From: Escherichia phage SR02
Reading direction: 5' to 3' (one strand)
Length of the DNA: 64,000 nt
Sequence record: OQ870566.1
Below the pieces are notes generated by a model. The model did not search any database, was not told the DNA's origin, and saw only the letters and a program-made list of their open reading frames with translations. This document shows, piece after piece, positions 1 to 61,500 of the stretch. The translations under genes and the position numbers were made by a program. The number at the start of each line of letters is the position of its first letter. Positions within the stretch are counted from its first letter, which is position 1.

Positions 1-548
1 CTCCCCGTTATTCTTTCCCCGTGTATACCATCCTATTCATTAGCTACCCGTTTATTTAGTTCCCCTTTAGAGAGTAAGAGAAAGGCTAGTCACTGATAAT
101 GATTAGATTAAGGCACTATGAATAAGCTAATAATACCCCTAGTTACTACCCCATTCCCCCATAGTTTGAGTGTAAATAGTTTCAATAGTAATGATTATGA
201 GTGCAATAATGATGTATGTATTAATTAAGTGGATAATAGTAATTAACAGTTATTATATTCTTTTTACTCTTTTCTTTTTTTCAGCGTTCTGTTGGTCTTT
301 TTCTTTTATGAGTTAACTAATTATTTAAGTGGTATATTATTACCGCACTATCTTGCTATGTTTCCCCGTGGTCTATCCTGCGGTTGTATACTCCCCGTGT
401 CCTGGTCTGTTGGTCTGTTACCCGTGGTGTTATCGTTAATGTTATAAAGTAACAATAGCTAGTAAGTTGATGCTCTGAGTATGGAAAGTTTAGTAAATTA
501 AATTCCTTTAGTATTCAGTGAGTTATGAAAAAGTTAGAAAATAAATGG
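1..548. repeat. ORF-poor leading region with short direct repeats (CCCCGTG, GTCTGTTGGTCT); possibly genome-end proximal
   Basis: Repeated short motifs at 1-30 and 280-440; no RBS-supported ORF before 621. Confidence 0.3.
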
Positions 549-576
549 TTGACAGGCTTTTCCTTTAATATATAGT
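549..576 (+). promoter_or_regulatory. sigma70-like promoter (TTGACA-16 nt-TATAGT)
   Basis: TTGACA 549-554, TATAGT 571-576, ~45 nt upstream of first gene. Confidence 0.5.
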
Positions 577-620
577 TGCAATCGTATTTTGTAGTTTTCA
601 TCAACCAAAAGGAATATCAA

Positions 621-1493
621 ATGTCTAAAGTAGCAATTAACCACTTGAACAAAGCAAACGAAAGCCTTTCCTCTTTGGGCTTGTCTGTTGGTAGTCCTGA
701 TGCGTGGATGGAAAACGAAAGTGCACGTAAAGGATTCAAAAACTCTGTAATGCTGGCTTGCTTGATCATTAATTCTACTGCGAACGCCTTACAGTGTGAA
801 GATGAAAGCACGTTCAAAGAGAATGGCTTTACCGATATGCAGGACGCTATCAACTGTTACATTCAGGCAAATTTGGATAGCTGGAATCAGAAAGATTGGC
901 CTGAGTCATGCCGTGATGTGAAAGCTGAATTATCCCGCTTGTCTGTCATGGTTGAAGCATGGAATAAGAAAAACAAGAAGCAACCTATCAAGCCTACTGT
1001 TGCAAGTAAGATTATGAAGTCTGTTAATCTGGCAAGTTATGCACTGGTTGCAGCGATCGGTGTTAGTGCACTGGTCACATCTCTTTCTGATAAGGCTGTT
1101 GCTAGTCCTACTCCTGCAACTGATGCGGCTAGTGTCTTCTCTAGTTCCATCAATAAGGGTTGGATGATTTGCAACGGTGCGGATAGTGACGGCAATAATA
1201 CCGTGCTAAAGATGAAATTTAGCAACGTTACTAATGATGGCGTTCTCTTTCAATCTAAAACGTTAGATAATCAGCCTAACAGTGATCTAGTTCTCAAGCG
1301 TACCGATAACGATGCGGATATGGTTACATTTGGCACTGTACAACGTTACGAAGACGTTAAAGCTGTCACCAACCTAGTGAGTTATGGTCCGGTTAATGAG
1401 TCGATGATCGCCACTACTGTTTACAATAATGCCGATAACGCTGTTTATACCGTTCACGTTAATTTAGCCAACTGCATTAAGGCTAGTAAGTAA
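621..1493 (+). CDS. hypothetical early protein with one predicted TM segment
   Basis: ATG 621 with AAGGAA RBS; long ORF; hydrophobic stretch VNLASYALVAAIGVSALVTSL. Confidence 0.6.
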   Translation: MSKVAINHLNKANESLSSLGLSVGSPDAWMENESARKGFKNSVMLACLIINSTANALQCEDESTFKENGFTDMQDAINCYIQANLDSWNQKDWPESCRDVKAELSRLSVMVEAWNKKNKKQPIKPTVASKIMKSVNLASYALVAAIGVSALVTSLSDKAVASPTPATDAASVFSSSINKGWMICNGADSDGNNTVLKMKFSNVTNDGVLFQSKTLDNQPNSDLVLKRTDNDADMVTFGTVQRYEDVKAVTNLVSYGPVNESMIATTVYNNADNAVYTVHVNLANCIKASK

Positions 1494-1519
1494 ATAACCT
1501 ATTTTTGGGAGTGTAAATA

Positions 1520-1786
1520 ATGGCTATTAAAGAAGTTAAATTATCTAACGGTTTTTCTTGTTTTGTTGGTGGAAGCTCTATCCTGTTTAATACACTTGAT
1601 GGTCAGATAACGTTACCTGTTATCACTTTTTGCAGGATGGAATTTCAACCTCTTAAGGATTGGTTAGCCTTTGCTAATTTTGAAATTACCCGTGAAGACT
1701 TCAAATCAATCTATATTGACGGTGATTTGTCACTGGCTAACCTGCTCAACCATGGGCTGAATGGGGATGATATTAATGGGGAATGA
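1520..1786 (+). CDS. hypothetical protein
   Basis: ATG with GGGAG RBS. Confidence 0.5.
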   Translation: MAIKEVKLSNGFSCFVGGSSILFNTLDGQITLPVITFCRMEFQPLKDWLAFANFEITREDFKSIYIDGDLSLANLLNHGLNGDDINGE

Positions 1787-2024
1787 AACTATCGCGTTAA
1801 TTGATACGCATAATTACGGTGGCGTTACGCTATCCTTTGATGAATCAACCGACGTTGGATATTTATCTTTTCTTTCTAAAGGTGAGATACAAACTATCCG
1901 CTTTCCTATTGTTTGTTTGGTGCAAGATTATCTAACTGTTGGGAAGTATTTAGCCCAACGTGGGATTCTTCTGTCGCTGGAAGAAGTGGAACAGGTTAGC
2001 GTAGCATTTTTTTGGCGAGGATAG
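1776..2024 (+). CDS. hypothetical protein
   Basis: Overlaps upstream stop; start choice among three ATGs uncertain. Confidence 0.4.
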   Translation: MGNETIALIDTHNYGGVTLSFDESTDVGYLSFLSKGEIQTIRFPIVCLVQDYLTVGKYLAQRGILLSLEEVEQVSVAFFWRG

Positions 2025-2134
2025 CAACTAGTGATTCATGATTATTTTTGGCGTTGCTTGTTCGTTGTTACAGTGGCGTTATTCGTCGCTGATGTGCTTT
2101 ATTCTTACGTTCTTTAATTAAGAGGTTTATTGCT

Positions 2135-2500
2135 ATGTGGTTTATTAAATTCATCGTTAAAACGGTTGTAGGCTTCTTTCTGGTCGTTCTTCTGTTGGGT
2201 GTCCTGCTATCGGCTATGGGTAGCGTTAAAGCTGCAACGTTTTCCCCTGCTACGGTGGAAGGTTTACAGTGCACCTATTTGATAGAAAACTATTCGACTG
2301 GTAAAAAGTCACCTAAGGTTATTATTTTACATGTAAATGATTTCGATCATGTACAATCATATGATAAAACTATTCAACTGGTAAATGAATCCACTGGTAA
2401 ACAAATCACGGTCGATCACTTGATGCGCTCATCGTTAACGCTCTTTGATGAGTCCATGAATGAAATGGCATCCGGTTTAGGTCAATGTGTAAATCCATAG
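2135..2500 (+). CDS. small membrane protein (N-terminal TM)
   Basis: AAGAGG RBS; N-terminal hydrophobic segment FFLVVLLLGVLL. Confidence 0.55.
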   Translation: MWFIKFIVKTVVGFFLVVLLLGVLLSAMGSVKAATFSPATVEGLQCTYLIENYSTGKKSPKVIILHVNDFDHVQSYDKTIQLVNESTGKQITVDHLMRSSLTLFDESMNEMASGLGQCVNP

Positions 2501-2576
2501 GCTTAATCTTTCTCCTTTATTGTGCCGTAGTCATGCCTATGGTCATAATTTATCTGATTCTCTAAATCCTTCCTGT

Positions 2577-2602
2577 AAGCCTCCTAGTGAGGCTTTTCTC
2601 TT
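2577..2602 (+). terminator. rho-independent terminator
   Basis: AAGCCTC/GAGGCTT hairpin followed by TTTTCTCTTTT. Confidence 0.55.
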
Positions 2603-2804
2603 TTATAGGGTGATTGTATTCCTTACTCCCTTTTAGCTCGTTGTGATGCGTTACAGGCCGTTAAATGGTGCTTTACAAGCCTTTTCCTACGATGTATCAC
2701 GCGCGCCCGTTCCTTTACCTCCTGATTTCTTCCGGTGTCCTATCAACAATAAAATAAATTCCTTTATAAAACAGTGAGATATAAAATAATTTGAAAAAAG
2801 GGTA

Positions 2805-2832
2805 TTGACAGGGTTTTCCTGTATAGTAATAT
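2805..2832 (+). promoter_or_regulatory. sigma70-like promoter (TTGACA-16-TAATAT) with A-rich upstream
   Basis: Consensus -35 at 2805-2810, -10 at 2827-2832; no ORF downstream. Confidence 0.5.
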
Positions 2833-3010
2833 GAATCCCGTAGTAAGCAGTAAGTAACAACAAGTAGTAAAAACTCCTCGATAGGTGATTAGCATCACGG
2901 TAAAAGGCTTCAACGGGGAGCGGTAGGAATACCGACAGTAAGACGCACAATGAAAGTGCTACGCTCTTTAAAAATCAGGCTAGAAAGTGAAAATATTCTT
3001 AAAAAGAGTA

Positions 3011-3039
3011 TTGACACCGAAAACAGCCTGATTCATAAT
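3011..3039 (+). promoter_or_regulatory. sigma70-like promoter (TTGACA-17-CATAAT)
   Basis: Near-identical ~50 nt unit to the promoter at 3462. Confidence 0.55.
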
Positions 3040-3461
3040 AAGCACTCAGTCAGCGATGACTTAAAACATCCCCGCTCTTTAAAAACTTATCATCTTGCCC
3101 TTTCGCAAAGATACACGCGAGATAAGGGAAAAGAATAAAAGAAGATGATAAAAAAGAGATTGCAAACGTGGTTAAGATAGTCCATACTAACCACAAGTTA
3201 ACAAAACAACGTTAACTAGTTCCCAAATCAACGTATCGCGGGAAAGGTGGCACATAGTGCGGCGAGTAGTTCAGGGTTAGGCGTCCTGTTAATGAATCAG
3301 TAAGCCTTCAATGCCATAGTGATTAGCAGACACTTTAAAAGGCTAACGCTCTTTAACAATATGAATCATAAGTTAAGCCTCACCGCTTAATCTTCAACCC
3401 AATAAAGCGGGTTGATATATCCTCCCAATAGCGGGAACGACGAAAAAAGATTAAAAAGTGG

Positions 3462-3490
3462 TTGACAGCGAAAACAACATGATTCATACT
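3462..3490 (+). promoter_or_regulatory. sigma70-like promoter (TTGACA-17-CATACT)
   Basis: Paralogous to the 3011 unit (AAAAAG.G.TTGACA.CGAAAACA.C.TGATTCATA). Confidence 0.55.
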
Positions 3491-4414
3491 GAGCACTCAC
3501 TAAGCAAATCACCGCTTCAGTGAAAAGCGTAACAACGGCTAACAGTTGCATAGTGTGAGAAAGCACACTGATAGATTTACCGCTCTTTAATAATTTAAAC
3601 ATTCTCCTATATCGGTTGATTATGTTAGATGATAATAACCATCGGATAACATACCAGATAAAACGGTGTAAGATTCTCTAAACTATCAGAGAAAACAATC
3701 TTACAATCCCTTACCGGAAACGTCACCACTGATAAACGGATTCATTGAGTACACGCAACGACTGAAGCTAATCGCCCACGGTTAAGGGTAGCGGCGGTCA
3801 TCGCTAACAAGGTGCTACAGTGAAAGAAGTTAATCAGGGTAGACAAGCCCGACGAATTAACGCTCAATTGAGAGCGGCGGTGAATGGTTAAAAAGTGGCA
3901 AATTGCTATTTAACAATAAGGTTTAGTGTGAACGTTTACGATGTGAACGGCTTGAGATTCATCACAAGATGAAAGTACATAGTCGGTTTATGTAGTAAAC
4001 TTGCCGAAAGATATAAAACGTCAGAACATTAGACGGTCAATGACTCTTTCACAATAGCATCCCGTTGTGGGCGATGGCTAGTGATTGAGAGTTGATACAA
4101 AAGGATAGGCGAGAGCGAAAGCAAAGTAGACGATATTGCCGACGGTTACAATAAACGTAACTAATTAGAGTCGGACGCACTGCCTTATTGTGATGATTGA
4201 TCATCGCTATCAGGTCGGCTTCGTTTATAGCGACTAATTAAAGATACCAGATGAAACATCACGGATAAGGGGGCGGCAAGGTTAACTCCTGATAAGACCG
4301 CCCCGCTTACCTATAACTACTTAACAACGAGTGGTTATAGTTAAGTTAATAGTGACTTAAACAAGCTCATAGAGAGCGGGGCAATAGCGCCCTTACAATT
4401 GAAAGGTGAATATC

Positions 4415-5314
4415 ATGGCTAAAATCTTTACTCTGGTTAACGAATCCGGTTTTAATGCTCTGGCTAACAACATTCGCAGTAATAACGCGGCGATCAAACA
4501 AGATGTTTCTAACTTCCTGTTAGGGCACTTACAGCACTTCCGCAGTAATGGTAAGAAGTTAGATGTATTGCAGGCGGCGGTTGACTTCCTGTTAACCGAA
4601 CGTTTCCGTGATATGGATGTTATTGCTACCTCAATTACTTTCTTAACTCCTATCAAGTTTAACACCGATGCGGCAAATGGTCGTAAAAAGTGGATTAATC
4701 TGGAAGGTGAGGCGAAAGCTAAAGAAGACGCGAAAGAAGCGCAAATTAAAACCAAAATGGAACAAAACCGCGCTCGATGGTCAAATGCTTTCGAAAACTT
4801 TGCTTTAGGCCGTGAAATTGAAGTTGATAACCCTAACTTCTACAAGGGTTGCAATGACAACGTGGCGGCACACCTGCAAATCCCGGCGAAAAACAAGGAA
4901 GATTTTAACCAAGATATTTACTCTTTAGTTGAACGCTTGAATGCAATCCGTATCGAAGCCAAATTGCTGGCTGATGAGCGAAACGGCGCAACTAGTGATA
5001 ACACTATCGCCCTGAGTGAAGAAGTTGGCAAGGTTAAAAAGTCCTTTGATTCACTCATCAAGAAAGTAACGGCCTCGACGGTAGCGATCTCAGACGATTA
5101 TCTGATGAACGCATCAAGCAAGGAGCTGGAATCACTCGATTCATACGCTGATGAAATGGAAAAAGCTGTTACAGCTATGCAGGAGAAGTTAGAGAGTCTG
5201 CGCGGTCGTATCTCTTCAACGGTTGCTACCCGTACCGAACAAGCGGCTAAAGAAGAAGAGGAAGAAGTATTGCGCAAGGCAGCTGAAATTATGGCGGCAC
5301 GTCAGGCAGCATAA
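4415..5314 (+). CDS. hypothetical protein, charged coiled-coil-like C-terminus
   Basis: ATG 4415 with GAAAGGTG RBS; 299 aa. Confidence 0.6.
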   Translation: MAKIFTLVNESGFNALANNIRSNNAAIKQDVSNFLLGHLQHFRSNGKKLDVLQAAVDFLLTERFRDMDVIATSITFLTPIKFNTDAANGRKKWINLEGEAKAKEDAKEAQIKTKMEQNRARWSNAFENFALGREIEVDNPNFYKGCNDNVAAHLQIPAKNKEDFNQDIYSLVERLNAIRIEAKLLADERNGATSDNTIALSEEVGKVKKSFDSLIKKVTASTVAISDDYLMNASSKELESLDSYADEMEKAVTAMQEKLESLRGRISSTVATRTEQAAKEEEEEVLRKAAEIMAARQAA

Positions 5315-5337
5315 GTAAGATAATTCAAATAAGCATA

Positions 5338-5372
5338 AGGCGCTATCTTAACGGGTAGCGCCTTTTCTTTTA
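5338..5372 (+). terminator. rho-independent terminator
   Basis: GGCGCTA..TAGCGCC hairpin + TTTTCTTTT. Confidence 0.6.
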
Positions 5373-5425
5373 TCAGTGCATTGATTCAGTGCATTAATCA
5401 AAGAATCCAATCAAAGGTGACGATC

Positions 5426-5644
5426 ATGTTAATTACACATACCACGATTTATCGGAATCTTGTCAACGGTCAACATTACCGACTATCTAAAAAGTATGGC
5501 GTTGAATGTAAATGTGTTATTACCGGTGAATGGTATCCGTCGCCAATGAAGATTGAAACGTTGGAACGTGAAGCGATCAGCTATATTATCACGCAAGAAA
5601 CAACGCTAGGCCGTGTCTTAAGAAAGTTGGGATTAAGAAAATGA
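5426..5644 (+). CDS. hypothetical small protein
   Basis: ATG with AAGGTGA RBS. Confidence 0.4.
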   Translation: MLITHTTIYRNLVNGQHYRLSKKYGVECKCVITGEWYPSPMKIETLEREAISYIITQETTLGRVLRKLGLRK

Positions 5645-5865
5645 TATTCAGTAATAATTTTGGCAAGTGTCCTATTTGTGAGAAACATCGCAGCACGGGA
5701 AACCATCGCAAATGTAGTAAGATATTACAGCGCCAACGTGATAACAATCATTGGGATACTGTACACACTAACCAGCGTAAAGAAGAAGTTAGGAAAATGG
5801 CTGTTAAAGCGTCATTTGCTCAATCCACCCGTATTGAACACATTCAAAGGTATCAAGCATCATGA
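5641..5865 (+). CDS. hypothetical Cys/His-containing small protein
   Basis: ATGA overlap coupling; CPICEKH motif. Confidence 0.4.
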   Translation: MIFSNNFGKCPICEKHRSTGNHRKCSKILQRQRDNNHWDTVHTNQRKEEVRKMAVKASFAQSTRIEHIQRYQAS

Positions 5866-6071
5866 TCACTAATATTTCAGAGTTTAAGAAAGCTCCCTCT
5901 CGTCTGTTAGGCCGTCGTGTAGTGTATCTTTATAGCAATAAAGGTAAATGTACAACCGGACGAATCACAACAGTAAGCAGTATCAACAAAAAACTATTGC
6001 AATTAAGCGTAGTTATGGACGATGGTACAATCCTGCTACGTAGTTGGAAATCGTTCGGTTTACTTGATTAA
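5862..6071 (+). CDS. hypothetical small protein
   Basis: ATGA overlap with upstream ORF. Confidence 0.4.
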   Translation: MITNISEFKKAPSRLLGRRVVYLYSNKGKCTTGRITTVSSINKKLLQLSVVMDDGTILLRSWKSFGLLD

Positions 6072-6140
6072 GTTATTTGTTCAAGCCTGTCGCCTTGATG
6101 GGCTTGCCCGATATAATTTATCACTGAAAGGAATAAGATT

Positions 6141-6584
6141 GTGGCTAAATCTAAAATCAGCATGAAGGGCGGGCGTTGTTTTGCTATCTCTGAACTAGAG
6201 AAAGAGAAACCGAAGGCAACTAATCACGTCAGTAAGCGTAGTTTAAAACGTCGTGCTGCAAAAGCTGAGGCTGAATCCCATGTCCCTTCCAGTGTGGCAA
6301 AACGTGTAGGTCATCGTGTCCATCGTGCTGATGCGTTGTTGTTAGCTGATCATAAACGTTCTTTGTTACAGAGCGGGGGCGCTAAAACAGAAGAAGAGAA
6401 GAAGTTAGAAATCTTCTGTAATGGTCGCACCCGTGGTAAACAGAAGTTTAAAGGTAGCACGAAAGACCCGCAAGCATTCCCTAAGACAAGTCAGTGTGCA
6501 CCTGATGTTTTCTACGCAGATAGTAAACACAAGTGGGGCGTTGAAAAATACATTGACCCCATCAAGGAGGCAAGGGTTAAGTAG
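6141..6584 (+). CDS. basic hypothetical protein
   Basis: GTG start with AAAGGA RBS; Lys/Arg-rich. Confidence 0.45.
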   Translation: MAKSKISMKGGRCFAISELEKEKPKATNHVSKRSLKRRAAKAEAESHVPSSVAKRVGHRVHRADALLLADHKRSLLQSGGAKTEEEKKLEIFCNGRTRGKQKFKGSTKDPQAFPKTSQCAPDVFYADSKHKWGVEKYIDPIKEARVK

Positions 6585-6664
6585 TAGGAATATAGCCCCC
6601 TCTTTTAGTACTATGACGCTCTTTCTGTAGCGTCGTGCCCTCTCCCCATTTGAAGCTTCCGCAT

Positions 6665-6687
6665 AGCCGCCTTTGAGCGGCTTTTTG
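6665..6687 (+). terminator. rho-independent terminator
   Basis: AGCCGC/GCGGCT hairpin + TTTTT. Confidence 0.55.
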
Positions 6688-6748
6688 CGTTGCTGTAAGT
6701 GCATTTGCGAGTGTATTTATAGCAACGGTCATGTGTTGCTTTCAGGTT

Positions 6749-6777
6749 TGCCCCGGCTACGGCTGGGGCTTTTTTTG
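6749..6777 (+). terminator. rho-independent terminator or leader attenuator
   Basis: GCCCCGGC..GCTGGGGC hairpin + TTTTTTT, 25 nt upstream of the HTH gene. Confidence 0.55.
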
Positions 6778-6801
6778 TATCTATTGTATAGGGAATTTTC
6801 T

Positions 6802-7101
6802 ATGAAAAACCCATTCGAGTTGATAAGTACAGACCCTGTAGAAATCAACATGCTTTCATTGAAGTCCAAGCTGATCATTATTCTTACGGAGTTGATCCGT
6901 GAGCAGGGGTGGTCACAACGTGTCGCAGCAGAGAAGCTAGGTGTTAGCCAGCCAAGGATTAGTAACCTTATGAATGGACAGCTTTCAAAGTTCTCCGTCG
7001 ATATGTTGTTGGAAATGGTTTTCAAGATGGGGTATAAGCTGGACATGAACTTCACTCCACTAAACACCAAGTCGCCACTGGCAATATTTGTAAAAAAGTG
7101 A
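6802..7101 (+). CDS. XRE-family helix-turn-helix DNA-binding protein (HigA/antitoxin-like fold)
   Basis: Motif QRVAAEKLGVSQPRISNLMNG typical of XRE HTH; ATG with RBS. Confidence 0.7.
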   Translation: MKNPFELISTDPVEINMLSLKSKLIIILTELIREQGWSQRVAAEKLGVSQPRISNLMNGQLSKFSVDMLLEMVFKMGYKLDMNFTPLNTKSPLAIFVKK

Positions 7102-7232
7102 TTGTGTAAGTTACAAATAGTAAGATAACACCTATTCCGAAAGAGTAGGTGTTTCTATAAACATCTTTTCGAGGGTGTTTATGGAAACAACAAAACAGGA
7201 GGTAGCAAGTTCTGATAACAACGGCCCAGCTA

Positions 7233-7622
7233 ATGTTGACATTGACTATTTATTATGAGGCAGGGAATCAGCCAACCGCATGTAAAGCTATGGTTGCGGA
7301 TACCGTGATAAATAGAATGGCCCAACGAAAACTGACCGCTGAACAGGTGATAAGACAAAAGAACCAGTTTGAGTGGATTCCGGTACTATTAAAACAGGAG
7401 AAACCTTATAAACGTTATGTAAAGCTGATTCGTGATAAAAATCCGATGACTAAGCAGGCCATTGGAGAAAGCGAGCGACTTGCTAAACGTGCCCTTAAAA
7501 AGAATTATGTTCCGCTGTACAGTGGGACTTACTTTCAGAGTAAGAGCGAAGGGGTGCCAAAATGGTATGCCAATCCTATGTATTGTGGTGATTTAGTGTT
7601 CGATAATAGCTCTAGGGAATAA
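7233..7622 (+). CDS. cell wall hydrolase, SleB/CwlJ-like
   Basis: IYYEAGNQ...AVADTVINRM...QFEWIP pattern matches SleB-type hydrolase core; weak RBS. Confidence 0.55.
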   Translation: MLTLTIYYEAGNQPTACKAMVADTVINRMAQRKLTAEQVIRQKNQFEWIPVLLKQEKPYKRYVKLIRDKNPMTKQAIGESERLAKRALKKNYVPLYSGTYFQSKSEGVPKWYANPMYCGDLVFDNSSRE

Positions 7623-7821
7623 TCACTAGTGCCAGATTTGACAAACTAAATTCCTTTATAAACCAACCACTTAGTAAATTTATTGAAAAAGATGGTAGTA
7701 TTCTGGGACTATGGGTAATGCTCTGTATATAGACCCTTTGAAAATTTCTTAGAAAATAAGTTTACTAAATATAACTTACTTAAATAATATTACTTTTAAT
7801 CTCTGATAAAGGGTAAATAAT

Positions 7822-8118
7822 ATGACTTTAGAGGTATATAAATTCCTTTTTGTACTCTGTTTAACTGTCAGCGTTCTAGGATTTATTGTTCTAAGAAACA
7901 AAGCAGCAAGCTGGGAGAGAATGTATAAATCTCTAGTCCGAGTGGATGAGATGTATAATGAGAAAGTTAAAGCAACTCTTAACGATCTTATTATGCAAGT
8001 TGAAGACAGAAACAAACGTCTTCAGAATCTCAACCACGAAGTGTTACGCCTTGCTCGTGCTAACGAAGACTTGCGAGTGGCGATTGCTAAGCAGCAGGAG
8101 ATTAACAGTGAAAGTTAA
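7822..8118 (+). CDS. membrane-anchored coiled-coil protein
   Basis: N-terminal TM (FLFVLCLTVSVLGFIVL) then heptad-like region. Confidence 0.5.
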   Translation: MTLEVYKFLFVLCLTVSVLGFIVLRNKAASWERMYKSLVRVDEMYNEKVKATLNDLIMQVEDRNKRLQNLNHEVLRLARANEDLRVAIAKQQEINSES

Positions 8119-9443: not shown

Positions 9444-9620
9444 ATGTCTAAGCAAACAATCAAACATACGCAAGCTGGTTACTCTTATGTTAACTCTCCT
9501 TGCTGTGGTGCTCGTGTTAATCTGGTTAAAGAAGAGGTTCGTATCGTTCAGCGTGGCGCTACTGTTGTTCGTTCATGTTGCGTCTGTGGTAATGATATTT
9601 TTATTAAAGGTAAAGTATGA
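9444..9620 (+). CDS. 58-aa Cys-rich (zinc-ribbon-like) protein
   Basis: Strong AGAGGAAG RBS; CC..CCVC motifs. Confidence 0.5.
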   Translation: MSKQTIKHTQAGYSYVNSPCCGARVNLVKEEVRIVQRGATVVRSCCVCGNDIFIKGKV

Positions 9621-9868
9621 AAAACTTTCAAGCTGCACCAATCACTAAAGTGATCGAAGTTGACGGTGTAATGATGACTGTTCCTCTGAACACTCGTTAC
9701 ATTGCAATTGACAAGATGGGCTATGTATGGGCTTGGAAGATCAAGCCTAGTTATAACGCACTGTTTGATGAGTTTGTTTGTACTGGTACTTACAGTCCTA
9801 CATTCTTGGGTTTATTTGGAGAGTTTGATGGTAAGCATAAAATCATCACTCTCCCTGCTTGTGCTTGA
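9617..9868 (+). CDS. hypothetical protein
   Basis: ATGA overlap with upstream ORF. Confidence 0.5.
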   Translation: MKNFQAAPITKVIEVDGVMMTVPLNTRYIAIDKMGYVWAWKIKPSYNALFDEFVCTGTYSPTFLGLFGEFDGKHKIITLPACA

Positions 9869-9875
9869 GGTTATT

Positions 9876-10040
9876 ATGTTCAAGTGGTTTAAACGTTTCT
9901 TCCATCTCCATGATTGGGAGACAATAAAAGAAATTCGTTTACACATACATAATGAGATTGGTCAAATAGAAGACACAGGTACTCGTTATATACTTCGATG
10001 TAAAACATGTGGTCATATCACCAAGCGAGATATGATCTAA
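9876..10040 (+). CDS. hypothetical small protein with CxxC
   Basis: TGAGGTTATTATG initiation context shared with 11007. Confidence 0.4.
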   Translation: MFKWFKRFFHLHDWETIKEIRLHIHNEIGQIEDTGTRYILRCKTCGHITKRDMI

Positions 10041-10048
10041 ATAATTCT

Positions 10049-10124
10049 GCGCTCTTAGCTCAATGGATAGAGCAGTAGCCTTCTAAGCTATTGGTTACAG
10101 GTTCGAGTCCTGTAGGGCGCACCA
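10049..10124 (+). tRNA. tRNA-Arg(TCT): tRNA-Arg (anticodon TCT)
   Basis: Hand-folded cloverleaf: acceptor GCGCTCT/AGGGCGC, D-arm GCTC/GAGC, anticodon loop CTTCTAA, T-arm ACAGG-TTCGAGT-CCTGT, encoded CCA. Confidence 0.85.
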
Positions 10125-10129
10125 CATTT

Positions 10130-10245
10130 AGGGCTAGTATGGGTGCGGCACCAGAGTTAGTGTATCCCTGTTGAGGCGAGTGCTTTTATAACAGTGGGAA
10201 TTACTTTCTTAGTGAGCTTCTGGTTCGATTCCAGATAGTCCACCA
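10130..10245 (+). other. tRNA-like fragment (canonical T-arm plus 3' acceptor half) without a foldable 5' half
   Basis: TCTGG-TTCGATT-CCAGA followed by TAGTCCA-C; no matching 5' acceptor strand within tRNA distance. Confidence 0.2.
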
Positions 10246-10263
10246 AATTAAGTGAGAGGTATC

Positions 10264-10440
10264 ATGGGTAATAAACTTTTAGTTATCTCCATAACTGAAG
10301 TCAATCAAAAACTACAATCAAAAGTTAGAACCCTAGTCTTCTTAGATGAGGAAGAAGGTAGGGATTTTATTGAGAATTCCGGCAAAACAATAATCTCTGT
10401 TGAACTGGCCGAGGTTATGTGCTCTTACAAAGCTTTCTAG
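10264..10440 (+). CDS. hypothetical small protein
   Basis: ATG with GAGAGGT RBS. Confidence 0.4.
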   Translation: MGNKLLVISITEVNQKLQSKVRTLVFLDEEEGRDFIENSGKTIISVELAEVMCSYKAF

Positions 10441-58535: not shown

Positions 58536-61500
58536 TTATCTCCGCCCGCCAACAGCAAACTCTATCGTTAAACCATTGATAGCAGCATTACTGTTAACAT
58601 CATTATCTATAACATTATAGAAAAGGTATGGATGGTTCAGTCTCACAGAGACATGCCTGTCAACACCGATCGTGTATGTCTTAGATGTGTGTGGGTGTCC
58701 ATATTCATTTGAGAATTGACTACCACCAGCTTCAAATATGTAAGTACCTGAGCCAGTTGTCTGAGGACGGAATCTATTAATATGCTTCTGATTCCACTCA
58801 TTTGTCACATTATCAAAATCTATACCAGTTCTCTCCAACCTCATCTCCAGAGGCTTCTCTATAACAACATCATTTAACCTGTCATAGAAATAATCAAGAG
58901 CACCTACATCCACTTGATAGAATCCCCTCAAGAACGAACCTACTATCGTAACCCTCTGTCTAAAGTTTGTTGCATCCTTTCTCCAAACGAGTTCTTTAAT
59001 AGATGGGTCATCCCAAGTGATTTCTTGGAAGTCAGACCAGATTGGACCTCTTTCTAAAACAGGAGGATCAACAAGACCAATACACTGAGCATATGGAATA
59101 GTACGGAAAGACCAAGTATCAAACTCATAATTCCATACAGCAGCCTTGGTACAAGCGAAGCTTTCTTTTGGTTCTCCCGGACCTACGTACAGAACCCAAA
59201 CTTCTTTCTTATCCTGATGCAAGTGTACTCGAGTTGCTAGAGGATTGACCAGACACACCTCATTAATCAGCATGTTCTTAACACGGTTAGATGCAATTGA
59301 CTTCTTGGTTGCACCATTATGTAAGATTACATCGTTCTGAGTGACTACGAAGTGACTACCTTCTACTTCAACCACACACTCAGGAGCAAGGATACCAGAG
59401 TCGTTAAAGAGCTTCTTGAACATTAGAGGTTGGTACGTGTTATTAGTCGGAGAACCAATATACGTTTCAAACTCTGTGTAAACGAACAAGTAATCTTTAA
59501 GAGGCAGAATATCAATCAAGCTACCATTAGAGTCAGCTAAGTCAATGTAACCAGCATACCCATTCTCTAGAGCCTGAGTCTGCCCTACGATGTTAGAAGC
59601 TAAGTCCGAAGACACAACTCGATCATAGGCAAAGTCATCCCACAGTGTAGGAGCCTTGTTCTCATTGGCAAAGTTAGACCAACGAAGACGAAGCGGATAG
59701 TTAGTGGTAACACCAGAAGCATTAGCCTCTCTCATATTCAGAGCAAAAAGGCGGTTGTTAAAAGATCTTACTCTTTCACATTTCCAGTTAAACTTCTTGA
59801 CTGAAGGGTTTCCATCATTATCAACAACTGTTTGCTCACCCCATCCCGGAAGATCTACAAAGTATTCCGATTCGAATTCTTTTACCTGAGGAGTTTCATA
59901 GTGAGTTGTAGCAACTGCACAGTTAGAGATAACAGCGTGATACCAAGGATAGTCATCAAAAGCATCGTAATCTTTCTGAGTCATCTGACTGACAGTACAT
60001 GTTACGTTAATCTCCCCTTTACGAAGAGCAACCAGTTTGATAGATTTACCAGTAACTGAGGTTGTAGAAACATAACCAGTTTTATCAACAGACCACTGAT
60101 AAGAGTACTCACCTTCTGGAGAAGCTGTGGCTGTAATGACAATCTCTTCACCAACATCAAGAGAAGCGCTGACAATATCTAAGGTTACAGATGACAGAGG
60201 GGTTGCCAGTAAAGAAGCTCTTGCAAAACCTTCAATGTCATTCACGTTAGAGTAGTCATAGAAGTTGTTACCTTCATACATCCCTGACGTATCAATACCG
60301 GATGTAGGCTCAGCAAAATAAACCGTCTCTTCACTTTCAGGAGGAGTTACTACTTCTTCCTCTTGAGTTTCTACTGACTCTGACATAGGAGCAGCAAATG
60401 CCATAGCACTTGTTCTCATTGTCCTTCCAGCTAAATCTACACGTACAGTACAGACAGCAACTCTATTACCTTCTTCAGTGGTAGCTGTAATCTCAGTAAA
60501 ACCAGCAAGTAGAGCATTTACTGTCCCTTGTGTGCTAGTCCCTGATACTGTTGCAATATTTGGATTAGAAGAGGTCCAAGTAATATTTTGATTAGGAGCA
60601 TTAGCAGGAGAAAGGGTAGCAGTTAAGATATACTGAGAACCTCTACTCACAATAACATCTGACTGGCTTAAAGAGATACTATCAATCTGAGGAATGGAAA
60701 CAATCTCACAAGAAGCAGTCTTAGTTCCGTTATCAGCAGTGATTGTTACATTACCTTCTCCATTCGCTGTAATGACAGCAGTTAAAGAGTTGGCGTTAGG
60801 AGTTACAGATACAATAGAAGCGTTATTGCTGGACCAAGTTACAGGAGTCTTGCCAGTAACAGCCGTGAGAGTAGTAGTCCCTCCTTTACGAATTGTAACA
60901 GTGTCTTGACTCAAGAAGATGCCTGAATCACCATCGACGATATTAACAGCAATCTGAGCCACTACGGATTCATTGGCAGTAGAGATAGTTACTACAAGAT
61001 TACCCTCTTTCTCAAAAGATGTTAGAGTAGCAAGTTTAGAGTCACTAGGGTTTACCGTAACACTTCCATAGGCCGAGTTACTAACCTCCCAAATAAGATC
61101 GGTATTGTTAGCATCAGCAGGGAGAAGAGAAACCTCTAGATTCTTGGTCTGATTGAAGTTCATTGAGATAGTTGATTCTTTAGGAACGATCTGAGAAACA
61201 ACCGGATAAATCTTAATTGAGGCAGAAGCCTTCTTAGTGACTGTAGCAACCTTACGGCTAATGTCAGTCAAGCTTTCATCTGTCAGTTTATATAACTTCT
61301 TATCCGTACCTACAACAAGAAAGCTATTACCTGCGCTATAATAATCGAAAGGCATAGATATGAAAGACAGAGGGGTTAAATCCTTATCTTCATCTACATA
61401 AGAAAGAGGGGCATTGCCCCCCGTCTTAAAGACTCTCTGCTCAACAAATCGAGCATTTATAGCATTAGTGAAAGCATTAGGAGCTAAGTCTGTCGGAGCC

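What the first reader, a model, noticed from the sequence alone, without database searches (positions are those of the whole stretch)
2500..4414. ~1.9 kb ORF-free early leader with three tandem strong sigma70-like promoters and a recurring CGCTCTTTAAnAA box
Between the terminator at 2577 and the gene at 4415 there is no RBS-supported ORF on either strand, yet the region carries three near-consensus promoters (-35 TTGACA at 2805, 3011, 3462) with A-rich upstream tracts; the 3011 and 3462 units are ~50-nt paralogs. The box CGCTCTTTAA[A/C/T]AA recurs four times (2962, 3073, 3347, 3581) at similar distances downstream of promoters, and the final 900 nt holds GC-rich inverted repeats (e.g. GGGGCGG...CCGCCCC around 4270-4310). 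This looks like a dedicated non-coding early transcription unit; what it does is open: small regulatory RNAs, processing sites, RNA polymerase or protein titration, or a replication/packaging element are all possible.
Basis: seen in the sequence. Interest (0 to 1): 0.6.

Follow-up and report, generated by a model that had tools for sequence, protein, structure and literature searches.

The report
Phage leader: boxA sites, big RNA
The 1.9-kb gene-free stretch at the start of this phiEco32/SU10-type coliphage's early region is built like a ribosomal-RNA operon leader: tandem strong host promoters, each followed by the host's boxA antitermination signal, drive a previously undescribed, highly folded RNA of about 830-920 nt that is conserved across the whole phage subfamily.

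Summary
Window 2596-4414 is the spacer between phiEco32 genes 125 and 124 (Kuravirus, Gordonclarkvirinae), and it is non-coding.

I add three points.

1. The "CGCTCTTTAAnAA box" is boxA, the NusB/NusE (S10) site of E. coli rrn leaders and lambda nut sites. Four exact consensus copies (GYTCTTTAANA) lie on the transcribed strand, each downstream of a sigma70 promoter. There is a fourth, weaker promoter at 3161. The copies persist in every relative, including phages whose gene-124 protein is only 48% identical.

2. The 3' part (about 3497-4414) is a large structured RNA.
- It is more conserved than the adjacent gene and shows no codon periodicity.
- Its length is fixed at 922-930 nt.
- The consensus has 239 base pairs in 40 helices; 69 pairs show compensatory changes and 99.4% of cells are paired.
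- G·U asymmetry assigns it to the + strand, and the folding z-score is -6.8.
- It has no Rfam family and no match in E. coli genomes.

3. T7 carries the same boxA after its A1-A3 promoters, so the promoter-boxA cassette is not unique. The RNA is the new element.

Inferred mechanism: Nus-modified, Rho-resistant RNA polymerase makes and helps fold this abundant early RNA, then reads on into the early genes. What the RNA acts on is unknown.

The parts
2577..2595 (+). Intrinsic-terminator-like hairpin that ends the upstream small early operon (genes 128-125)
   Evidence: 7-bp stem followed by a T run. SU10 annotates a terminator at the homologous place.
2784..2832 (+). Promoter unit A: A-rich UP-like tract, -35 TTGACA at 2805-2810, 16-nt spacer, -10 TAATAT at 2827-2832
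   Evidence: 10/12 match. The upstream tract is paralogous to that of unit B (D5).
2963..2974 (+). boxA copy 1 (GCTCTTTAAAAA), about 122 nt from the predicted start of promoter A
   Evidence: Conserved in many Kuravirus relatives.
2990..3039 (+). Promoter unit B: UP-like tract, -35 TTGACA at 3011-3016, 17-nt spacer, -10 CATAAT at 3034-3039
   Evidence: 11/12 match. The SU10 homologue is listed as an early promoter.
3048..3061 (+). Small hairpin AGTCA-GCGA-TGACT between promoter B and boxA 2, in a boxB-like position
   Evidence: Read from the sequence. Not tested by covariation.
3074..3085 (+). boxA copy 2 (GCTCTTTAAAAA), about 28 nt from the predicted start of promoter B. In rrnB, boxA begins about 31 nt after the estimated P2 start.
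3140..3189 (+).
   Evidence: The same unit occurs in ECBP2, KBNP1711, 4E8, WFI101126 and IMEP8. Other relatives carry a different promoter module upstream of the same boxA.
3348..3359 (+). boxA copy 3 (GCTCTTTAACAA, identical to the E. coli rrnB boxA core). The colinear, highly conserved block begins here.
   Evidence: Fixed at about -1065 from the ATG in all relatives. Conservation profile.
3360..3440 (+). Three short conserved hairpins between boxA 3 and promoter D
   Evidence: Compensatory changes are visible, for example CAACCC/GGGTTG against CAATCA/TGATTG, and SU7-type phages have hairpins of different sequence.
3441..3490 (+). Promoter unit D: UP-like tract, -35 TTGACA at 3462-3467, 17-nt spacer, -10 CATACT at 3485-3490
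   Evidence: 10/12 match. The hexamers are conserved while the spacer varies. The SU10 homologue is listed as an early promoter.
3551..3570 (+). boxB-like hairpin with an A-rich loop (AGUGUG-AGAAAG-CACACU), 11 nt upstream of boxA 4
   Evidence: Helix 3: 3 of 7 pairs have double compensatory changes. A hairpin at the same place occurs in distant relatives.
3582..3593 (+). boxA copy 4 (GCTCTTTAATAA), inside the longest invariant stretch of the leader (AGATTTACCGCTCTTTAA)
   Evidence: Distant relatives have an exact GCTCTTTAACAA at -901 to -921 from the ATG.
3497..4414 (+). The whole leader RNA, from the predicted start of promoter D to the start codon of gene 124. Transcripts from upstream promoters are longer.
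   Evidence: - Length fixed at 922-930 nt, measured from 3490, in 24 distinct sequences.
- 239 pairs in 40 helices, 69 with compensatory changes.
- MFE z-score -6.8, against -1.2 for the adjacent CDS.
- + strand assignment from G·U asymmetry.
3594..3892 (+). RNA domain 1, closed by a helix pairing 3594-3604 with 3882-3892. Contains the invariant GGGTAGCGGCGG.
   Evidence: Helices 5-19. Only weakly recognisable in the distant clade.
3893..3916 (+). Hairpin plus a boxA-like variant GCTATTTAACAA (3905-3916), within the invariant AATTGCTATTTAACAATAAGGT. It departs from the boxA consensus at critical position 4 and is largely base-paired.
   Evidence: helices 20, 21. Position 4 is one of the two positions (C4T/T6C) changed together in the double mutant that abolishes function in PMC5725501. 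Not present as such in distant relatives.
3913..4191 (+). RNA domain 2, closed by ACAAUAAGGU/GCCUUAUUGU. Its core (about 3931-4134) is the most widely conserved part.
   Evidence: Helices 21-31. Covariance model R1 finds it at the syntenic place in distant relatives: L281 155 bits, L283 64 bits, L287 26 bits, L285 17 bits.
4192..4393 (+).
   Evidence: Helix 35 has 5 of 7 pairs with double changes and helix 37 has 5 of 10.
4401..5314 (+). Shine-Dalgarno region (GAAAGGTGAA) and gene 124 homologue (299 aa, function unknown). It always lies directly downstream of the RNA.
   Evidence: It stays linked to the leader in the rearranged genomes IMEP8 and Bas92. PHROG family of unknown function.

Best explanation
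The spacer is a non-coding early transcription unit organised like an rRNA operon leader, and it makes a large structured RNA.

**Proposed sequence of events**
1. Host sigma70 RNA polymerase starts at three or four tandem strong promoters with A-rich UP-like tracts.
2. Within 28-152 nt each transcript acquires a boxA. For the last unit this is a boxB-like hairpin followed by boxA.
3. boxA recruits NusB-S10 together with NusA, NusG and SuhB, converting the polymerase into the fast, Rho-resistant, RNA-chaperoning form that normally makes rRNA.
4. That polymerase transcribes, and helps fold, an untranslated multi-domain RNA of about 830 nt between the last boxA and the Shine-Dalgarno sequence of gene 124. 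The RNA is about 920 nt counted from the last promoter.
5. The polymerase then continues into gene 124 and the early genes.

**Role of the RNA.** The folded RNA is itself a selected product and a new RNA family. My favoured reading is that it is an abundant early RNA acting during host takeover, possibly after processing from the mRNA and possibly together with gp124. A purely cis role cannot be excluded.

**Shown here**
- The region is non-coding.
- The promoter hexamers are conserved.
- The box matches boxA exactly, with correct strand, position and deep conservation.
- The RNA secondary structure is supported by covariation.

**Inferred**
- Nus-factor loading.
- Rho resistance and assisted folding.
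- Abundance of the RNA, and whether it acts in cis or in trans.

**Unknown**
- The RNA's molecular target.
For: **boxA**
- The four boxes match the gamma-proteobacterial boxA consensus GYTCTTTAANA (PMC5725501). There are 5 hits in 64 kb against 0.58 expected, and 4 of them lie in the leader on the + strand.
- The copy at 3348 equals the rrnB boxA core. Relatives with the C variant of the last copy share the 16-mer GCTCTTTAACAATTTA with rrnB.
- Every relative has 3-6 copies clustered there on the transcribed strand.
- The longest invariant stretches of the leader are the last boxA and the boxA-like element.
- Relatives with only 48-69% gp124 identity keep 2-3 boxA copies, most preceded by a recognisable sigma70 promoter, and then about 900-920 nt of untranslated sequence, although most of the rest has diverged.

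**The structured RNA**
- The 3' 1.05 kb is more conserved than the adjacent CDS (89.8% against 75.4% nt identity to SU7) and shows no codon periodicity.
- Consensus structure: 239 pairs, 99.4% of cells paired, 69 pairs with double changes against 4-10 in slid controls, 0/500 shuffles reach this.
- 596 G·U cells against 17 A·C cells.
- Folding z-scores: -6.8 here, -10.3 and -5.1 in distant relatives.
- The domain 2 covariance model hits the distant relatives at the syntenic place.
- The RNA is present at full length in all 97 Gordonclarkvirinae records.

**Precedents**
- Long untranslated RNAs need protection from Rho, and boxA provides it for CRISPR arrays (PMC7665894).
- Nus factors loop boxA to the polymerase and promote rRNA folding (PMC5725501; PMC4807359 abstract).
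- T7 has the same boxA after its three early promoters.
Against: - No transcript, binding or genetic data could be consulted. The two phiEco32 transcription papers are not in the library.
- rrn-type complexes are not known to suppress intrinsic terminators well, yet a strong terminator-like hairpin follows gene 124 at 5337-5364. Read-through into the rest of the early genes is therefore uncertain.
- No boxC-like GU-rich element follows the boxA copies.
- Domain 1 is barely recognisable in the distant clade, so not all of the RNA is equally constrained.
- The predicted long-range pairing between the boxA flank and the Shine-Dalgarno region is invariant in kuraviruses but not kept in distant relatives. 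It cannot be used as evidence.
- Nothing points to a specific target for the RNA.
  - gp124 has no recognisable fold or family.
Confidence: 0.6

Rival explanations
1. The folded region is only a long cis-acting 5' untranslated leader of gene 124 and the early operon. It would act as a platform for RNase III/E processing, as a barrier that stabilises the downstream mRNA, or as a translational control element, with no function in trans.
For: - It is always immediately upstream of gene 124, even in rearranged genomes.
- No terminator separates it from the gene.
- Several stacked helices exceed 20 bp and could be RNase III substrates.
- The lambda nutL-N leader is a precedent: a structured leader with Nus-dependent translational control (PMC5725501).
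- T7 has an RNase III site in the equivalent place (own knowledge).
Against: - About 830 nt, 40 helices and near-complete positional conservation, higher than in the neighbouring protein gene, is far more than known leaders need.
- The only predicted pairing with the Shine-Dalgarno region is not conserved in distant relatives.
Confidence: 0.25
2. The region is a transcription-activated replication origin. Strong promoters would produce a structured pre-primer RNA, as with ColE1 RNA II or the promoter-dependent primary origin of T7.
For: - Tandem promoters followed by a long non-coding structured transcript lie near one genome end.
- T7-like replication has been suggested for these phages (PMC4281155).
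- There is a G-rich run at 4269-4276.
Against: - No origin features were found or tested.
- GC skew simply follows the direction of transcription.
- boxA-modified polymerase and the continuous read into gene 124 are not features of known primer RNAs.
- The conserved structure spans the whole 830 nt rather than a hybrid-forming segment.
Confidence: 0.07
3. The region works mainly as a sink. Multiple very strong promoters and multiple boxA RNAs would draw host RNA polymerase and Nus factors away from host genes and rRNA operons, and the downstream sequence would be incidental.
For: - There are three to six promoter/boxA units per genome, and the copy number varies.
- Transcripts from upstream promoters carry up to four boxA copies.
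Against: - This does not explain the conservation, fixed length and covariation of the downstream RNA.
- By my own knowledge, phiEco32 already encodes a dedicated sigma70-holoenzyme inhibitor, gp79. It is referred to in PMC8948821.
Confidence: 0.05
4. The region encodes small proteins that annotation pipelines miss.
For: - Some records annotate short ORFs here.
- A 23-codon Arg-rich ORF with an SD lies at 3820-3891 and is intact in 21 of 23 close relatives.
Against: - There is no 3-nt periodicity.
- ORF lengths are not conserved.
- No comparable peptide exists in distant relatives.
- The annotated ORFs differ between records in place and strand.
Confidence: 0.02

Closest known systems
E. coli rrn operon leader (P1/P2 promoters with UP elements, boxB-boxA-boxC, Nus-factor/SuhB antitermination complex)
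   Same: - Tandem strong sigma70 promoters with A-rich upstream tracts.
- An identical boxA core (GCTCTTTAACAA) on the transcript about 30 nt or more after the start.
- A hairpin just upstream of boxA.
- A long, untranslated, highly structured RNA with long-range domain-closing helices as the product.
   Different: - No sequence or model similarity to rRNA.
- No boxC.
- boxA is repeated after each promoter.
- The RNA is followed by protein-coding early genes on the same transcript.
- It is carried by a virulent phage.
Phage T7 early region (promoters A1, A2, A3, boxA at nt 813-823, RNase III site, gene 0.3)
   Same: A cluster of three strong host promoters near the early genome end, followed by an exact consensus boxA before the first early gene. 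A T7-like metagenomic contig has three promoter-proximal boxA copies.
   Different: T7 has a single boxA and only about 100 nt between it and gene 0.3. Here each promoter has its own boxA, and about 830 nt of conserved structured RNA is interposed.
Lambda-type nut sites (boxA + boxB, N protein)
   Same: A boxA motif on an early phage transcript that is expected to recruit NusB/NusE.
   Different: - The phage motif is the full rrn-type boxA, not the shorter lambda version (CGCTCTTA, own knowledge).
- The hairpin lies upstream rather than downstream of boxA.
- No N-like protein was identified.
boxA leaders of CRISPR arrays and other long non-coding transcripts (Stringer et al. 2020, PMC7665894)
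   Same: A boxA placed at the start of an unusually long untranslated RNA, where it counters Rho.
   Different: Here the RNA is a single complex fold rather than a repeat array. The setting is the first minutes of a lytic infection, with several promoter-boxA units in tandem.
Large structured non-coding RNAs of phages and bacteria (GOLLD, ROOL, OLE, HEARO, raiA)
   Same: Size class above 500 nt, a many-helix architecture supported by covariation, phage association (GOLLD and ROOL) and unknown biochemical function (own knowledge).
   Different: - No match to any Rfam model.
- Restricted to E. coli/Shigella Gordonclarkvirinae and a few metagenomic relatives.
- Not next to tRNA genes.
- Placed in an early leader behind boxA.

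Membership tests
rrn-type (Nus-factor) boxA antitermination site | Match to the boxA consensus (GYTCTTTAANA for gamma-proteobacteria; rrn core GCTCTTTAACAA) | tested here: met
   Four exact matches in the leader; 5 in 64 kb against 0.58 expected. The copy at 3348 is identical to rrnB.
rrn-type (Nus-factor) boxA antitermination site | Located on the transcribed strand shortly downstream of a promoter | tested here: met
   All copies are on the + strand, 28-152 nt after the predicted starts of sigma70-type promoters. The starts themselves are predicted, not mapped.
rrn-type (Nus-factor) boxA antitermination site | Selective conservation of the motif while the flanks diverge | tested here: met
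   It forms the longest invariant stretches of the leader. It is retained as an exact motif in relatives with 48-69% gp124 identity, where most of the leader is no longer alignable by BLAST.
rrn-type (Nus-factor) boxA antitermination site | Accompanying boxB hairpin upstream and boxC (GU-rich) downstream | tested here: inconclusive
   A covarying hairpin with an A-rich loop lies 11 nt upstream of the last boxA and recurs in distant relatives. No GU-rich boxC-like element is seen downstream. Neither element is required for rrn antitermination (own knowledge).
rrn-type (Nus-factor) boxA antitermination site | Binding of NusB-NusE/SuhB and read-through of Rho-dependent termination | not testable with these tools
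   Needs ChIP/RIP, boxA mutants, nus mutant hosts and bicyclomycin.
Lambda-type nut site | A boxB hairpin a few nucleotides downstream of boxA and a cognate arginine-rich N protein | tested here: not met
   The hairpin is upstream of boxA. The only Arg-rich mini-ORF (3820-3891) is not conserved in distant relatives. Neighbouring proteins have no informative family.
Any described RNA family (Rfam 15, including rRNA, RNase P, group I/II introns, GOLLD, ROOL, OLE, HEARO, raiA, 6S) | Covariance-model match at or near the gathering score | tested here: not met
   No hit at E<=1 in 1-8000. Only noise of 21 bits or less, far below gathering scores, at E<=10 in 2780-4430.
Structured functional RNA (generic) | Compensatory base-pair changes above controls, strand asymmetry, thermodynamic stability above shuffles, and absence of a coding signal | tested here: met
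   Extended to distant relatives by model R1 and by fold z-scores.
Transcription-primed replication origin (ColE1 RNA II / T7 primary origin type) | A mapped initiation site, a persistent RNA-DNA hybrid, and an AT-rich unwinding region downstream of the promoters | not testable with these tools
   Only composition was examined, and the skew follows transcription.

The most novel reading that the evidence does not exclude
The leader encodes a new class of large phage RNA, about 0.85 kb. Its synthesis co-opts the host's rRNA-making machinery: UP-element promoters and the Nus/boxA antitermination-chaperone complex. The RNA then acts in trans in the first minutes of infection. It could be a decoy or scaffold that neutralises a host defence or captures part of the translation or RNA-decay apparatus, perhaps as a ribonucleoprotein with gp124 or as a self-assembling particle like ROOL and GOLLD. 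In T7 the equivalent first-expressed position holds the anti-restriction protein Ocr. Gordonclarkvirinae are reported to be unusually resistant to restriction without a known mechanism (PMC11990801).
Probability: 0.3. Interest if true: 0.9.

Novelty: new variant of a known kind. Interest (0 to 1): 0.75.

Why it matters
Very few bacterial or phage RNAs longer than 500 nt with complex conserved folds are known, and most lack a known function or a tractable host.

- This one sits in a common family of E. coli phages. Members of that family infect K-12 derivatives (BASEL collection), so deletion, trans-complementation, probing and cryo-EM are all straightforward.
- It would be, to my knowledge, a rare documented case of a phage using rrn-type boxA antitermination to make a large folded RNA that is not rRNA. 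That links the chaperone role of the Nus complex to a viral product.
- It gives a concrete candidate for the antitermination mechanism of phiEco32-like early transcription.
- It draws attention to the unannotated boxA in T7-type early regions.
- Practically, these phages are being developed for therapy, and their genome annotations either leave this 1.9 kb blank or fill it with spurious ORFs.

Tried and rejected
- **phiEco32 papers.** The two phiEco32 genome/transcription papers (PMID 18294652, 22261232; PMC2587145, PMC3275717) are not held. I cannot exclude that they comment on the spacer. Full-text searches for phiEco32/Kuravirus with boxA, antitermination, intergenic or non-coding found nothing relevant.
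- **Rfam.** No family matched at either threshold.
- **E. coli genomes.** No similarity, so the RNA is not derived from a host rrn leader or a prophage.
- **Wider homologue search.**
  - IMG/VR holds only 5 kuravirus contigs.
  - The metagenome scan with the boxA-like 17-mer gave mostly chance hits plus 7 kuravirus contigs.
It returned only chance hits in high-GC genomes, so it was a poor choice.
- **Long-range pairing of the boxA flank with the Shine-Dalgarno region (helix 4).** It is invariant in kuraviruses but not conserved in distant relatives. Duplex search with the 5' coding region was no better than shuffles. Dropped.
- **boxA-like elements.** The element at 3905 fails consensus position 4 and is mostly paired. 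The element at 4043 lies inside a helix. Neither is counted as boxA.
- **Small ORFs.** Rejected.
- **gp124 as a clue.** No Pfam domain and a PHROG of unknown function. The AlphaFold model has pLDDT 69, and no PDB match has E<1.
- **Phage 7-11 (another C3-morphotype phage).** It has a 1-kb ORF-free leader but no boxA and no hit to model R1. Its first gene is not clearly homologous to gene 124.
- **Domain 1 model R2.** It detects only a weak partial match in one distant relative.
- **GC skew.** It gives no origin signal.
Full report
**Identity of the region**

The window is the early-gene end of a Kuravirus, the phiEco32/SU10-like prolate podophages of E. coli in the subfamily Gordonclarkvirinae. 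The flagged 1.9 kb matches 95 phage records at 80-96% identity. It corresponds to the spacer between SU10 CDS121 and CDS120, which are phiEco32 genes 125 and 124. Most records annotate nothing there. A few carry short ORFs that disagree with each other in position and strand. The SU10 paper states that, as in phiEco32, three sigma70 promoters lie in this spacer. It lists two that are homologous to window positions 3011 and 3462. It says nothing further about the spacer.

**Check of the observation**

- The terminator-like hairpin at 2577-2595 and the near-consensus promoters at 2805, 3011 and 3462 are present.
- The 3011 and 3462 units are 44-nt paralogues, 84% identical.
- The consensus scan as a whole is not enriched over shuffles. 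The case for real promoters therefore rests on conserved hexamers with variable spacers in relatives and on the literature.
- A fourth unit was missed: A-rich tract, TTGCAA, 17 nt, CATACT at 3161-3189.
- The box occurs exactly four times (2963, 3074, 3348, 3582), always on the + strand. A one-mismatch copy lies at 3905 and a degenerate one at 4043.
- The distances from the predicted starts are about 122, 28, 152 and 85 nt, so they are not similar.
- No ORF is credible.
  - The 62-aa ORF that spans a promoter is truncated or absent in relatives.
  - Substitutions in 3360-4414 show no codon periodicity: 148/138/140, against 84/54/237 in the next gene.
  - No peptide is conserved in distant relatives.

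**The box is boxA**

- The published gamma-proteobacterial boxA consensus is GYTCTTTAANA (Baniulyte et al. 2017, PMC5725501). All four copies match it. The window has 5 matches against 0.58 expected, and four are in the leader.
- The real E. coli rrnB leader reads P2, boxB hairpin, then GCTCTTTAACAATTTATCA. The copy at 3348 has the same 12-mer. Relatives with the C variant of the last copy share the 16-mer GCTCTTTAACAATTTA.
- Every relative examined has 3-6 copies clustered on the transcribed strand.
  - Two copies sit at fixed positions, -1065 and -832 from the start codon of gene 124.
  - The other copies sit in an indel-rich array of promoter-plus-boxA modules upstream. The modules differ between phages, but the array consistently pairs promoters with downstream boxA copies.
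- The longest invariant stretches of the whole leader are the last boxA with its 5' flank and the boxA-like element at 3905.
- A hairpin with an A-rich loop lies 11 nt upstream of the last boxA and covaries (helix 3). This resembles the boxB-boxA order of rrn leaders.
- The element at 3905 (GCTATTTAACAA) breaks consensus position 4, one of the two positions changed together (C4T/T6C) in the double mutant that abolishes function. It is mostly base-paired in the RNA model, so I do not count it as boxA.

**The 3' half is a large structured RNA**

- From about 3360 to the start codon the sequence is colinear in all relatives and almost free of indels. It is more conserved than the flanking protein genes: 89.8% against 75.4% nucleotide identity to SU7, and a similar pattern for the other divergent genomes.
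- The distance from the last promoter's -10 element to the ATG is 922-930 nt in 24 distinct sequences.
- RNAalifold on these 24 sequences predicts 239 pairs, 69 of them with compensatory double changes.
- Counting on the named structure gives the following.

| Measure | Structure | Slid controls |
|---|---|---|
| Cells paired | 99.4% | 35-46% |
| Pairs with double changes | 69 | 4-10 |
| Covariation score | 0.202 | 0.03-0.06 |

  None of 500 shuffles reaches any of the observed measures.
- There are 596 G·U cells against 17 A·C cells. The selected pairing is therefore in RNA of the + strand, the strand that the promoters transcribe.
- The single-sequence fold has z = -6.8. An equal length of the adjacent gene has z = -1.2.
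- The architecture is as follows.
  - Hairpin plus boxA.
  - Domain 1 (3594-3892).
  - A hairpin.
  - Domain 2 (3913-4191), closed by a 10-bp helix.
- No Rfam family matches, and nothing similar exists in 5,426 E. coli genomes.
- All 97 Gordonclarkvirinae records carry the RNA at full length.

**Deeper relatives**

A protein search with gene 124 found metagenomic homologues at 67-69% and 48-49% identity. Their contigs show about 3 kb without called genes upstream of the homologue.

- Within that gap are two or three exact rrn-type boxA copies, most preceded by a recognisable sigma70 promoter. The last copy lies 901-921 nt from the start codon. Most of the remaining sequence is no longer alignable by BLAST.
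- A covariance model of the domain 2 core finds all four contigs at the syntenic position, with visible compensatory changes: 155, 64, 26 and 17 bits (E from 6e-38 to 0.0085). It finds nothing in phage 7-11.
- These leaders also fold far better than shuffles, with z = -10.3 and -5.1.
- A model of domain 1 detects only a weak partial match. The domain 2 core is therefore the widely conserved heart, and domain 1 is clade-specific or too diverged to detect.
- The predicted pairing between the boxA flank and the Shine-Dalgarno region is not kept in these relatives, so I discard it.

**How it most likely works**

- Rho terminates untranslated transcripts, and boxA-bound Nus factors prevent this on rRNA reporters and CRISPR arrays (PMC7665894).
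- The Nus complex also loops boxA to the polymerase, and its primary role is considered to be promoting rRNA folding and ribosome assembly (PMC5725501; PMC4807359 and PMC10250234 abstracts).
- A phage that needs to make a 0.9-kb untranslated, intricately folded RNA from host promoters faces the same problems as an rRNA operon. Here it carries the same solution, installed after every promoter.

I therefore read the spacer as an rrn-style cassette. UP-element promoters give very high early output. boxA loads NusB-S10, NusA, NusG and SuhB. The modified polymerase is fast and Rho-resistant, and it assists folding of the leader RNA. Transcription then continues into gene 124.

The sequence features and the RNA structure are shown. 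Factor loading and its consequences are inferred from the established behaviour of boxA. The function of the RNA is not known. Its size, its conservation at paired and unpaired positions alike, and its invariable linkage to gene 124, even in rearranged genomes, suggest a product with its own activity. A purely cis-acting leader is the main rival.

**Comparison with known systems**

- T7 has an exact consensus boxA at nt 813-823, between promoter A3 and gene 0.3. It is not annotated in RefSeq.
- A T7-like metagenomic contig picked up by chance has three promoter-proximal boxA copies.
- Tandem early host promoters followed by boxA are therefore a recurring design in virulent coliphages. This supports a real role and lowers the novelty of that part.
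- Three things have no counterpart that I could find.
  - The interposed RNA of about 830 nt.
  - The repetition of boxA after each promoter.
  - The association of rrn-type antitermination with a large non-ribosomal structured RNA.
- The RNA is not a member of any described family. In size and complexity it belongs with GOLLD, ROOL and OLE.

**Verdict**

- The promoters were already known.
- The boxA identity and the structured RNA appear undescribed in the literature I could search.
- Confidence that the boxes are genuine boxA elements and that a conserved structured RNA exists is about 0.9.
- Confidence in the full mechanism as stated is about 0.6.
- Interest is 0.75.

Noticed in passing
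window 1-540: The first 540 nt are ORF-free and carry five or more copies of a (C/T)TCCCCGT(G)-like motif (for example at 1-9, 16-24 and 362-370) upstream of the first early promoter at 549. This is probably the genome terminus or terminal-repeat region.
   Followed up: no
window 2596-2760: - A conserved pyrimidine-rich, C>G segment lies just after the terminator and before the first leader promoter. It includes ACCTCCT, which resembles the 16S anti-Shine-Dalgarno sequence.
- It could be a Rho-loading backup terminator that insulates the two early units.
- Some records annotate a minus-strand ORF here (Paul CPT_Paul_130, E20-1 ORF114).
   Followed up: no
window 2135-2500: The 121-aa protein upstream of the leader is labelled 'terminase' in many records through phrog_13168. 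It is a small protein with a hydrophobic N-terminus and only a weak YobH-like hit, so the label looks like a propagated misannotation.
   Followed up: partly
L289 (T7, NC_001604) 813-823: T7 carries an exact consensus boxA (GCTCTTTAACA) between early promoter A3 (750) and gene 0.3 (925). It is not annotated in the RefSeq record.
   Followed up: partly
L135 about 9540-10400, minus strand: A T7-like metagenomic contig, picked up by chance, has three rrn-type boxA copies near the genome end. At least two of them closely follow a TTGACA-type promoter, and small early genes lie between the units.
   Followed up: no
L143 (Salmonella phage 7-11) 6865-7917, minus strand: Phage 7-11 also has an ORF-free leader of about 1 kb upstream of its first early gene (gp151). 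The leader folds moderately better than shuffles (z = -2.7). It has no boxA and no match to the kuravirus RNA model.
   Followed up: partly
L016 (IMEP8) and L017 (Bas92): In these genomes the small first early operon (homologues of window 576-2500) is relocated downstream of the gene-124 block. The leader RNA stays directly upstream of gene 124.
   Followed up: no
window 5337-5364: A strong terminator-like hairpin (12-bp stem plus a T run) directly follows gene 124. Unless it is read through, the promoter array, leader RNA and gene 124 would form a separate unit of about 2-2.5 kb.
   Followed up: no
window 3820-3891: A 23-codon GTG ORF with an AAGGTG SD encodes an arginine-rich peptide (VKEVNQGRQARRINAQLRAAVNG) that superficially resembles N-protein RNA-binding motifs. 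It lies inside covarying helices and is not kept in distant relatives.
   Followed up: yes
window 3990-3999: AUGUAGUAAA is a conserved, predicted single-stranded segment of domain 2. It is one of the few stretches still detectable by BLAST in the most distant relatives, so it is a candidate interaction site.
   Followed up: no
window 58991-59001: The only consensus boxA match outside the leader (GTTCTTTAATA) is on the + strand, in a region whose genes are on the - strand. It is most likely a chance match.
   Followed up: no
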